DNA of 64,000 nt, taken from Escherichia coli (GTDB lineage Bacteria > Pseudomonadota > Gammaproteobacteria > Enterobacterales > Enterobacteriaceae). The DNA is taken from NCBI RefSeq assembly GCF_051903065.1, contig NZ_CP178438.1; one strand, 5' to 3'. A program made the translations under genes and the position numbers. The notes beneath the pieces were generated by a model. That model saw only the letters and a list, made by a program, of their open reading frames with translations. It was not told the DNA's origin and made no database searches. Of the stretch, positions 58,866-59,005 are shown one piece after another. Positions within the stretch are counted from its first letter, which is position 1; each line of letters begins with the position of its first letter.

Positions 58866-59005
58866 CCATTCATCTATTGCGAAAAAGCCAGTGAAATTAC
58901 TCTGCTTTTTCGCAATCAGCATCACAAGATTACCCTTATTGCCACATAGCCAAACCCATCCTTTCCCGCTACAGTTAATTTCTTGTGGCGCGAAAGGAGG
59001 CAAAA

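What the first reader, a model, noticed from the sequence alone, without database searches (positions are those of the whole stretch)
58879..58913. Perfect 10-bp inverted repeat between the epimerase gene and yihX
gcgaaaaagc ... gctttttcgc forms a strong hairpin 14 bp after the epimerase stop. It lacks a 3' T-run outside the stem on either strand, so it is not a canonical intrinsic terminator; it could be an RNA stability element, a protein-binding operator for the downstream yihX promoter, or a remnant of a rearrangement junction.
Basis: seen in the sequence. Interest (0 to 1): 0.2.

Follow-up and report, generated by a model that had tools for sequence, protein, structure and literature searches.

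The report
Operon-end RNA hairpin before yihX
A real 13-bp perfect palindrome sits just after the last gene of the E. coli "short yih" sugar cassette; it is most likely an ordinary RNA stem-loop that caps the 3' end of that operon's transcript, not a canonical terminator, an operator or a mobile element.

Summary
The repeat is real and larger than reported: ATTGCGAAAAAGC / GCTTTTTCGCAAT, 58876-58888 and 58904-58916, with a 15-nt spacer, starting 10 nt after the epimerase stop codon. As RNA it folds at about -18.7 kcal/mol (z = -6). No perfect repeat this long is expected by chance in 64 kb.

It belongs to the "short yih cassette" allele, carried by 1386 of 5426 complete E. coli genomes. It is single-copy and identical in 1380 of them. 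K-12 has the long sulfoquinovose cassette instead and lacks it; the two alleles become homologous again 22 nt downstream, at 58939.

It is not a canonical intrinsic terminator. The U5 run lies inside the stem, the tail is CAGCAUCAC, and the core hairpin is worth only -0.7 kcal/mol. The most C-rich, G-poor stretch of the window (C/G 3.4, top 0.07%) starts at the hairpin's 3' arm. That matches the stem-loops described at the 3' ends of Rho-terminated E. coli transcripts.

Outside Escherichia the hairpin is not conserved. Raoultella has a canonical terminator at the same place, Phytobacter has GC-rich hairpins, and two Citrobacter have no comparable hairpin.

No evidence supports an operator, a repeat family or a mobile element. 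The function is inferred, not shown. Verdict: ordinary, low interest.

The parts
58876..58888 (+). 5' arm of the perfect inverted repeat, ATTGCGAAAAAGC (outer clamp ATTGCG, A5 tract, GC)
58889..58903 (+). 15-nt spacer CAGTGAAATTACTCT. It forms only a weak 4-bp inner helix (AGUG/UACU). The core hairpin GC...GC alone is worth -0.7 kcal/mol. The single difference from Escherichia sp. MOD1-EC7003 lies here (T58897G).
58904..58916 (+). 3' arm GCTTTTTCGCAAT. The U5 run is inside the stem, not after it.
57978..58865 (+). Aldose 1-epimerase gene, the last gene of the short yih cassette operon (yihU-like reductase, aldolase, Zn-ADH, MFS, MFS, epimerase). The hairpin would sit at the 3' end of its transcript.
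58900..58977 (+). C-rich, G-poor tract (27 C, 8 G) that starts at the 3' arm of the hairpin. It has the highest C/G ratio within 2 kb and is in the top 0.07% of the window. It is a candidate Rho-utilisation region.
58939..58939 (.). Right-hand boundary of cassette-specific DNA. From TTGCCACATAGCC onward the short-cassette and K-12 long-cassette alleles are homologous (yihX leader).
59006..59605 (+). yihX (glucose-1-phosphatase), the downstream gene on the same strand. The hairpin would separate it from the cassette operon.

Best explanation
The palindrome is transcribed as the last element of the short yih cassette operon (yihU-like reductase through epimerase). In the RNA it folds into a stable stem-loop of about -18 kcal/mol, 10 nt after the stop codon. 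It cannot release RNA polymerase by itself, because the U-run is buried in the stem and the core hairpin is too weak. Transcription probably continues into the C-rich, G-poor tract that follows, where Rho terminates it. 3'-to-5' exonucleases (PNPase, RNase II) then trim back to the base of the stem. The stem therefore defines and protects the mRNA 3' end and keeps the sugar-cassette transcript separate from the yihX-yihY-dtd-fabY genes. Shown here: the sequence, the fold, the position, the lack of terminator features, the C>G tract, and the allele and species distribution. Inferred: transcription through the element, Rho action, exonuclease trimming and any effect on stability.
For: The stem-loop is stable, far beyond chance, and sits directly after the last stop codon of the operon. 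The hairpin gains its energy only once CGCAAU has been transcribed: -3.5 kcal/mol up to 58907, -6.2 up to 58910, -18.3 up to 58916. The tail after the stem has one U in nine bases. The 78-nt window starting at 58900 has C/G = 27/8, the highest within 2 kb and in the top 0.07% of the whole window. Dar and Sorek 2018 (PMC6061677) describe this combination at the steady-state 3' ends of Rho-dependent E. coli transcripts: a stable stem-loop, no U-rich tail, C-over-G enrichment downstream, and trimming by PNPase and RNase II. Other genera carry other hairpins at the same place between the orthologous epimerase gene and the conserved yihX leader. Raoultella has a canonical terminator, ACACCCG-N8-CGGGTGT followed by TTTTCTGC. 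Phytobacter has two GC-rich hairpins. This suggests the site needs some 3' structure rather than this particular sequence. The arms are unchanged between E. coli and Escherichia sp. MOD1-EC7003 (0 of 26 positions), while third codon positions of the adjacent epimerase gene differ at 14.5%; from these figures I calculate P of about 0.02. The only change is in the loop.
Against: There is no transcript data for this locus. Published Term-seq data are from K-12, which lacks the element. Two Citrobacter with the same epimerase-to-yihX order have no comparable hairpin (Cu233 none, MGH106 only a 4-bp one), so it is dispensable in relatives. Measured against the rest of the intergenic region (4 of 89 positions differ), the conservation of the arms is not significant. 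Only about 42 nt of the C-rich tract lie between this hairpin and the next strong hairpin (58959-58998), which is short for a rut site, and much of the tract is the yihX leader that K-12 shares. A 15-nt spacer is longer than the loops of typical 3' stem-loops. In the Nissle 1917 study the four yihTUVW genes of the short cassette showed no differential expression on sulfoquinovose; whether the downstream genes are expressed was not read here (PMC12608037). In the window's own strain an IS1-associated deletion has removed the cassette promoter region.
Confidence: 0.45

Rival explanations
1. Decayed terminator or neutral palindrome. An ancestral terminator of the A-tract / GC-stem / T-tract type lost its GC core. 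The remaining perfect arms are a relic, possibly sharpened by templated quasi-palindrome correction, and have no present function.
For: The arms have the A5...T5 layout of the many GCGAAAAAGC-N-GCTTTTTCGC palindromes found in unrelated metagenomic contigs. Of 99 distinct examples, 73 have a strong GC core and so look like canonical terminators, and 28% carry at least 3 extra outer pairs, as this one does. In the alignment with C. amalonaticus, the E. coli core GCCAGTG-AAAT-TACTCTGC lies opposite an intact GCCGCTG-GAAT-CAGCGGC stem at the same position. The hairpin is absent from the Citrobacter and Raoultella loci with the same gene order. A related A/U-rich hairpin in Citrobacter sp. R56 is deleted in the close relative S2-9. 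Invariance within E. coli (1380 of 1386) is uninformative at the diversity of this species.
Against: A fold of -18 kcal/mol right after a stop codon will block 3' exonucleases in the RNA whatever its origin, so a relic and a protective cap are not mutually exclusive. Both arms stayed perfect across the split between E. coli and Escherichia sp. MOD1 while the loop changed. Homology to the Citrobacter terminators rests on about 60% identity over 30 nt and is not established.
Confidence: 0.3
2. Weak non-canonical intrinsic terminator. Part of the polymerases stop at or just after the U5 run, or at the base of the long stem, without Rho.
For: A U5 run (58906-58910) directly follows the inner G-C pairs and an A5 run precedes them. 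This is the layout of bidirectional terminators. The position is typical of terminators.
Against: The hairpin available when the polymerase is on the U-run is worth only -0.7 to -3.5 kcal/mol. The canonical terminators in the same window are worth -18 to -29 kcal/mol with 3-4 nt loops. The complete stem is followed by CAGCAUCAC. The consensus scan did not call it on either strand.
Confidence: 0.1
3. DNA-level operator. A dimeric regulator, such as the cassette's DeoR-type YihW or the neighbouring GntR-type YihL, binds the two 13-bp arms to control yihX or the end of the cassette.
For: Perfect dyad symmetry, located 90 nt upstream of the yihX start.
Against: The arm centres are 28 bp apart, which is poor geometry for a dimer. 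No further half-sites occur in the cassette promoter regions or elsewhere beyond chance: 26 matches against 20.3 expected in the HS locus, and 7 against 3.5 in the window. There is one copy per genome. The yihX leader is recognisably homologous in K-12, Citrobacter, Raoultella and Phytobacter, all of which lack the palindrome. [quoted passage not shown]
Confidence: 0.05
4. Recombination scar or hot spot. The palindrome marks, or promotes, the breakpoints by which the long and short yih cassettes replace each other.
For: It lies only 22 nt from the right-hand boundary of cassette-specific DNA. One genome, O157:H7 TR01, has a long cassette whose csqR is fused at window position 58902, inside the loop and 2 nt before the 3' arm. 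About 260 nt of window-type sequence follow. Published work states that the cassettes are exchanged recurrently (PMC12608037).
Against: The general boundary is at 58939, not in the hairpin. The TR01 junction occurs in 1 of 5426 genomes and could be an assembly error. No copy or half-copy exists at the other end of either cassette or anywhere else in E. coli, even at E-values up to 10. There is no target-site duplication and no recombinase gene next to it. Thirteen base pairs with a 15-nt spacer is far below the size of palindromes known to provoke breakage.
Confidence: 0.05

Closest known systems
Protective 3' stem-loops of Rho-dependent E. coli transcripts (Dar and Sorek 2018, PMC6061677; idea from Peters et al. 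2012)
   Same: It is an energetically stable stem-loop downstream of the last ORF, has no U-rich tail, and a C-over-G tract starts at its 3' arm.
   Different: No 3' end, Rho dependence or exonuclease trimming has been measured here. The spacer is 15 nt, and an A5/U5 pair sits inside the stem, whereas that class was reported not to be associated with A-tracts.
Canonical (bidirectional-type) intrinsic terminators: A-tract, GC-rich stem, T-tract
   Same: It has an A5...T5 symmetry around a central segment, sits right after a stop codon, and the same arm sequence is common in terminator-like palindromes from metagenomes.
   Different: The core stem is essentially absent (-0.7 kcal/mol against a median of -8.75 in the metagenomic set and -18 to -29 for whole terminators in this window). 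The loop is too long and the U-run is paired inside the stem, with a non-U tail.
REP/BIME and other repeated extragenic palindromes of E. coli
   Same: It is an intergenic imperfect-loop palindrome that would stabilise upstream mRNA.
   Different: It is single-copy in every genome, has no similarity to REP (real REPs lie at the other end of the cassette), and has no Rfam match.
Short versus long yih (sulfoquinovose) cassette polymorphism of E. coli (Kaznadzey et al. 2025, PMC12608037)
   Same: The hairpin is a fixed feature of the short-cassette allele, next to its right-hand boundary. The allele frequency found here (about 25% of complete genomes, including Nissle 1917, ST131 and HS) agrees with that paper's description.
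   Different: The paper defines the short cassette as yihTUVW. A term search of its main text found no mention of yihX, a terminator, a hairpin or a palindrome, and 'epimerase' only for K-12 yihR, so it does not appear to describe the ADH, MFS, MFS and epimerase genes or this hairpin.

Membership tests
Canonical intrinsic (Rho-independent) terminator | GC-rich stem of about 5-14 bp with a short loop (3-8 nt) that can form while the polymerase sits on the U-tract | tested here: not met
   The core GC...GC hairpin is worth -0.7 kcal/mol. RNA up to 58907 folds at only -3.5 kcal/mol. The spacer is 15 nt. The scan did not call it.
Canonical intrinsic (Rho-independent) terminator | U-rich tract of 7-8 nt immediately 3' of the stem | tested here: not met
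   The tail after the 13-bp stem is CAGCAUCAC on + and AGAUGAAUGG on -. The U5 run is inside the stem.
Canonical intrinsic (Rho-independent) terminator | Factor-independent release of the transcript in vitro or in vivo | not testable with these tools
   Needs in vitro transcription or Term-seq in a short-cassette strain.
Protective 3' stem-loop of a Rho-dependent transcript | Energetically stable stem-loop downstream of the coding region | tested here: met
   -18.7 kcal/mol, z = -6.05. It starts 10 nt after the stop codon.
Protective 3' stem-loop of a Rho-dependent transcript | No uridine-rich sequence after the stem | tested here: met
   One U in the nine bases after the stem.
Protective 3' stem-loop of a Rho-dependent transcript | C-over-G enrichment (rut-like) immediately downstream | tested here: met
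   C/G = 27/8 in 58900-58977, the 99.93rd percentile of the window. Caveat: a second hairpin at 58959-58998 interrupts the tract.
Protective 3' stem-loop of a Rho-dependent transcript | Steady-state 3' end at the base of the stem, read-through with bicyclomycin, and extension in pnp or rnb mutants | not testable with these tools
   K-12 data sets do not contain this allele.
REP/BIME or other dispersed palindromic repeat; MITE | Many copies per genome sharing a consensus | tested here: not met
   Exactly one place per genome in 1386 genomes and none in the other 4040, at E-values up to 10. No Rfam match.
Transcription-factor operator | Conservation with the regulated promoter across relatives, and further sites in the regulon | tested here: not met
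   Absent from the K-12, Citrobacter, Raoultella and Phytobacter loci, whose yihX leaders are homologous. Half-site counts are at chance level.
Transcription-factor operator | Direct protein binding | not testable with these tools
   Needs EMSA or footprinting.

The most novel reading that the evidence does not exclude
[quoted passage not shown] The O157:H7 TR01 junction, in which csqR is fused 2 nt before the 3' arm and followed by about 260 nt of short-cassette-type yihX DNA, would then be a caught intermediate of homology-facilitated illegitimate recombination at a hairpin.
Probability: 0.04. Interest if true: 0.35.

Novelty: new member of a known kind. Interest (0 to 1): 0.1.

Why it matters
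It matters little beyond annotation. It marks the likely 3' end of the extended short yih cassette operon, which is carried by about a quarter of E. coli genomes, including Nissle 1917 and ST131. It is also a clean candidate for a stable hairpin that is not a terminator and is followed by a rut-like tract. If confirmed, it would show how a sugar-inducible operon is kept separate from the yihX-yihY-dtd-fabY genes, and it would illustrate turnover between intrinsic and Rho-type operon ends among related genera (Raoultella versus Escherichia).

Tried and rejected
- Rfam at a permissive threshold over 56500-60500 gave no family.
- The promoter and terminator consensus scan found nothing at the element.
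- I looked for other copies in E. coli. Blastn with 91-nt and 53-nt queries, the latter at E-values up to 10, found one place per genome and none in long-cassette genomes.
- I looked for operator half-sites in the cassette (strain HS locus) and in the window. Counts were at chance level. One 12-of-13 copy lies inside the epimerase ORF at 58500, which I regard as chance.
- Covariation could not be tested. The only non-E. coli sequence with the hairpin (Escherichia sp. MOD1-EC7003) has identical arms, and the next relatives (74% or less protein identity) have non-homologous downstream DNA.
- An apparent homology with the A/U-rich hairpin of Citrobacter sp. R56 and the terminator of C. amalonaticus is too weak to build on.
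- I searched the literature for the sequence itself and for the yihW-yihX intergenic region. Nothing relevant turned up.
- K-12 Term-seq supplements list 3' ends inside yihX and yihY only, and that strain lacks the element.
It returned no E. coli-type locus, so it speaks to the architecture and not to this element.

Full report
**Observation.** The reported 10-mers are at the stated coordinates. The perfect complementarity is longer than reported: ATTGCGAAAAAGC (58876-58888) and GCTTTTTCGCAAT (58904-58916), separated by 15 nt. The stem begins 10 nt after the TAA stop codon of the aldose 1-epimerase gene (58863-58865) and ends 89 nt before the yihX ATG (59006). As RNA the + strand folds at -18.7 kcal/mol (z = -6.05; none of 200 shuffles as good), and the - strand folds at -19.6 kcal/mol (z = -3.1). 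The window contains three perfect inverted repeats of 13 bp or more with loops of 3-20 nt. First-order Markov randomisations gave none in 60 trials. The feature is therefore real and not a chance match.

**Genomic context.** The window is E. coli. A 1.5-kb query around the element matched 5423 of 5426 complete genomes, but only 1342 matched over most of its length. In the rest, homology starts at window position 58939, in the yihX leader. K-12 has yihV-csqR(yihW)-yihX there, with non-homologous DNA up to TTGCCACATAGCC. Genomes with the element (ST131, HS, Nissle 1917, UTI89, E2348/69 and others) carry the following, in order:
- a DeoR regulator gene (-)
- a sugar kinase gene (-)
- a yihU-like reductase gene (+)
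- an aldolase gene (+)
- a Zn-dependent alcohol dehydrogenase gene (+)
- two MFS transporter genes (+)
- the aldose 1-epimerase gene (+)
- then yihX (+)

This is the "short yih cassette", described as inverted relative to the K-12 long cassette and scattered over the E. coli tree (Kaznadzey et al. 2025, PMC12608037). The hairpin therefore belongs to the 3' end of that cassette, 22 nt inside its right-hand boundary. In the window's own strain an IS1 sits where the DNA from the yihM 5' end to the middle of the second MFS gene is missing. The epimerase gene and the hairpin are thus cut off from the cassette promoter.

**Distribution.** A 53-nt query centred on the hairpin found exactly one place in each of 1386 genomes and was identical in 1380. 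It found nothing in the other genomes even at E-values up to 10. The element is therefore not a dispersed repeat, a REP or a MITE, and Rfam has no match.

Outside E. coli, only Escherichia sp. MOD1-EC7003 has it. Its arms are identical and it has one substitution in the loop (T58897G). The adjacent epimerase gene differs at 7.9% of sites, and at 14.5% of third codon positions. From these figures I calculate that zero changes in 26 arm positions has a probability of about 0.02 at the third-position rate. It is unremarkable against the rest of the intergenic region, where 4 of 89 positions differ.

The next relatives of the epimerase are 74% identical or less. Their downstream DNA is not homologous:
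- Citrobacter sp. Cu233 and MGH106 go from the epimerase gene to yihX without a comparable hairpin.
- Raoultella ornithinolytica has a canonical terminator there (ACACCCG-N8-CGGGTGT, then TTTTCTGC).
- Phytobacter has two GC-rich hairpins.
- C. sedlakii and C. amalonaticus have canonical terminators in front of other genes.
- Citrobacter sp. R56 has an A/U-rich hairpin with a U-tail, which is deleted in the close relative S2-9.

The place often carries a transcript-end structure, but this particular sequence is confined to Escherichia.

**What it is not.** It is not a canonical intrinsic terminator. The U5 run (58906-58910) is paired inside the stem and the tail after the stem is CAGCAUCAC. The hairpin that could form while the polymerase is on the U-run is negligible: -0.7 kcal/mol for the core, -3.5 for RNA up to 58907, -6.2 up to 58910, and -18.3 only once CGCAAU has emerged. 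The other perfect repeats at gene ends in the same window are textbook terminators, with 3-4 nt loops, GC-rich stems, T-runs and energies of -18 to -29 kcal/mol.

Of 99 distinct examples, 73 have a strong GC core and so look like A-tract / stem / T-tract terminators. In 28% the complementarity extends at least 3 bp beyond the arms, as it does here. The E. coli element has that outer architecture with a hollow core. This fits a terminator whose core has decayed, or a hairpin that never terminated.

An operator is unlikely. The half-sites are 28 bp apart centre to centre, and there are no further sites above chance. K-12, Citrobacter, Raoultella and Phytobacter have homologous yihX leaders but no palindrome. 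It is not a junction in the strict sense either, because the allele boundary is at 58939 and there is no second copy at the other cassette end.

**Most likely mechanism.** The stretch that starts at the hairpin's 3' arm is the most C-rich, G-poor segment for 2 kb and ranks in the top 0.07% of the whole window (27 C and 8 G in 58900-58977). Dar and Sorek reported this combination at the steady-state 3' ends of Rho-dependent E. coli transcripts: a stable stem-loop, no U-tail, C>G downstream, and PNPase and RNase II trimming back to the stem (PMC6061677).

I therefore take the element to be the 3'-terminal protective stem-loop of the short-cassette operon, with Rho acting downstream. This would also limit read-through into yihX. 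All of this is inference from sequence, and several points weaken it:
- No transcript data exist for this allele.
- The unstructured C-rich segment before the next hairpin (58959-58998) is only about 42 nt long.
- In Nissle 1917 the four yihTUVW genes of the short cassette showed no differential expression on sulfoquinovose.
- Relatives do without this hairpin.

A neutral relic of a former terminator is the main rival. The two readings are not exclusive, since any stem of -18 kcal/mol at a 3' end will hinder exonucleases.

**A curiosity.** One genome, O157:H7 strain TR01, has a long cassette whose csqR loses its stop codon and is joined at window position 58902, 2 nt before the 3' arm. About 260 nt follow that are identical to the window allele rather than to K-12 or HS. 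This junction is unique among 5426 genomes. It may be a single illegitimate recombination event or an assembly error. It does not establish the hairpin as a recombination site.

**Verdict.** The feature is real, and its stem is 3 bp longer on each side than reported. It is an ordinary operon-end hairpin specific to the short yih cassette allele. It is probably a protective cap at a Rho-type operon end, and possibly a decayed terminator. It is a new member of a known kind and of low interest.

Noticed in passing
window 56700-57590 (IS1 roughly 56780-57560; yihL 55991-56701; MFS gene remnant 57587-57988): An IS1 sits between a short 5' stub of yihM and the last third of the second MFS gene. Compared with strain HS, yihM, yihN, the DeoR and kinase genes, the divergent promoter region, the yihU-like, aldolase and ADH genes, MFS1 and most of MFS2 are missing. 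The epimerase gene and the hairpin are promoterless remnants in this strain. E. coli 23CRST027 (NZ_AP045789.1) has the identical arrangement.
   Followed up: partly
window 58959-58998: There is a second, stronger hairpin in the yihX leader (about -23 kcal/mol). Its 3' arm GAAAGGA overlaps the yihX Shine-Dalgarno sequence, and its 5' arm TCCTTTC acts as an anti-SD. The outer pairing is kept in K-12, Escherichia sp. MOD1, two Citrobacter, Raoultella and Phytobacter. The segment CCTTTCCCGCTACAGTTA is nearly invariant across these genera, with the core TTTCCCGCTACAGTTA identical in all seven. It could be a translational control element or part of the yihX promoter.
   Followed up: partly
L027 1195-1240 (E. 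coli O157:H7 TR01, NZ_CP033605.1), corresponding to window 58902 onward: This is a unique chimeric junction. The long-cassette csqR is fused, without its stop codon, to the 3' arm of the short-cassette hairpin. About 260 nt of window-type yihX sequence follow, which extends csqR to 828 nt. It occurs in 1 of 5426 genomes and is either a rare illegitimate recombination or an assembly artefact.
   Followed up: partly
window 58500-58534: A 12-of-13 copy of the hairpin arm (TTTGCGAAAAAGC) lies inside the epimerase ORF, where it encodes part of WFAKKL. It is next to a terminator-like stem on the - strand (58534-58514, tail AGCTTTTTCG). I regard this as probably coincidental.
   Followed up: no
L030 11458-20016 (E. 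coli HS) and L028 7031-15589 (ST131): The short yih cassette published as yihTUVW is followed on the same strand, with short intergenic gaps, by four more genes: Zn-ADH, two MFS transporters and an aldose 1-epimerase. The epimerase is a distant YihR homologue (27% identity, E = 7e-12). The MFS-epimerase pair recurs in Citrobacter, Raoultella, Klebsiella oxytoca, Mixta and even Alphaproteobacteria and Vibrio. The cassette may encode a complete pathway for a different sugar.
   Followed up: partly
L036-L155 (metagenome contigs): Palindromes of the form GCGAAAAAGC-N8-24-GCTTTTTCGC are common in unrelated environmental contigs. Most have a strong GC core. In 28% the complementarity continues at least 3 bp, and up to 40 bp, beyond the A/T tracts, against 1.6% expected by chance. 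Terminator-like hairpins with the U-tract buried in a longer stem are therefore widespread.
   Followed up: partly
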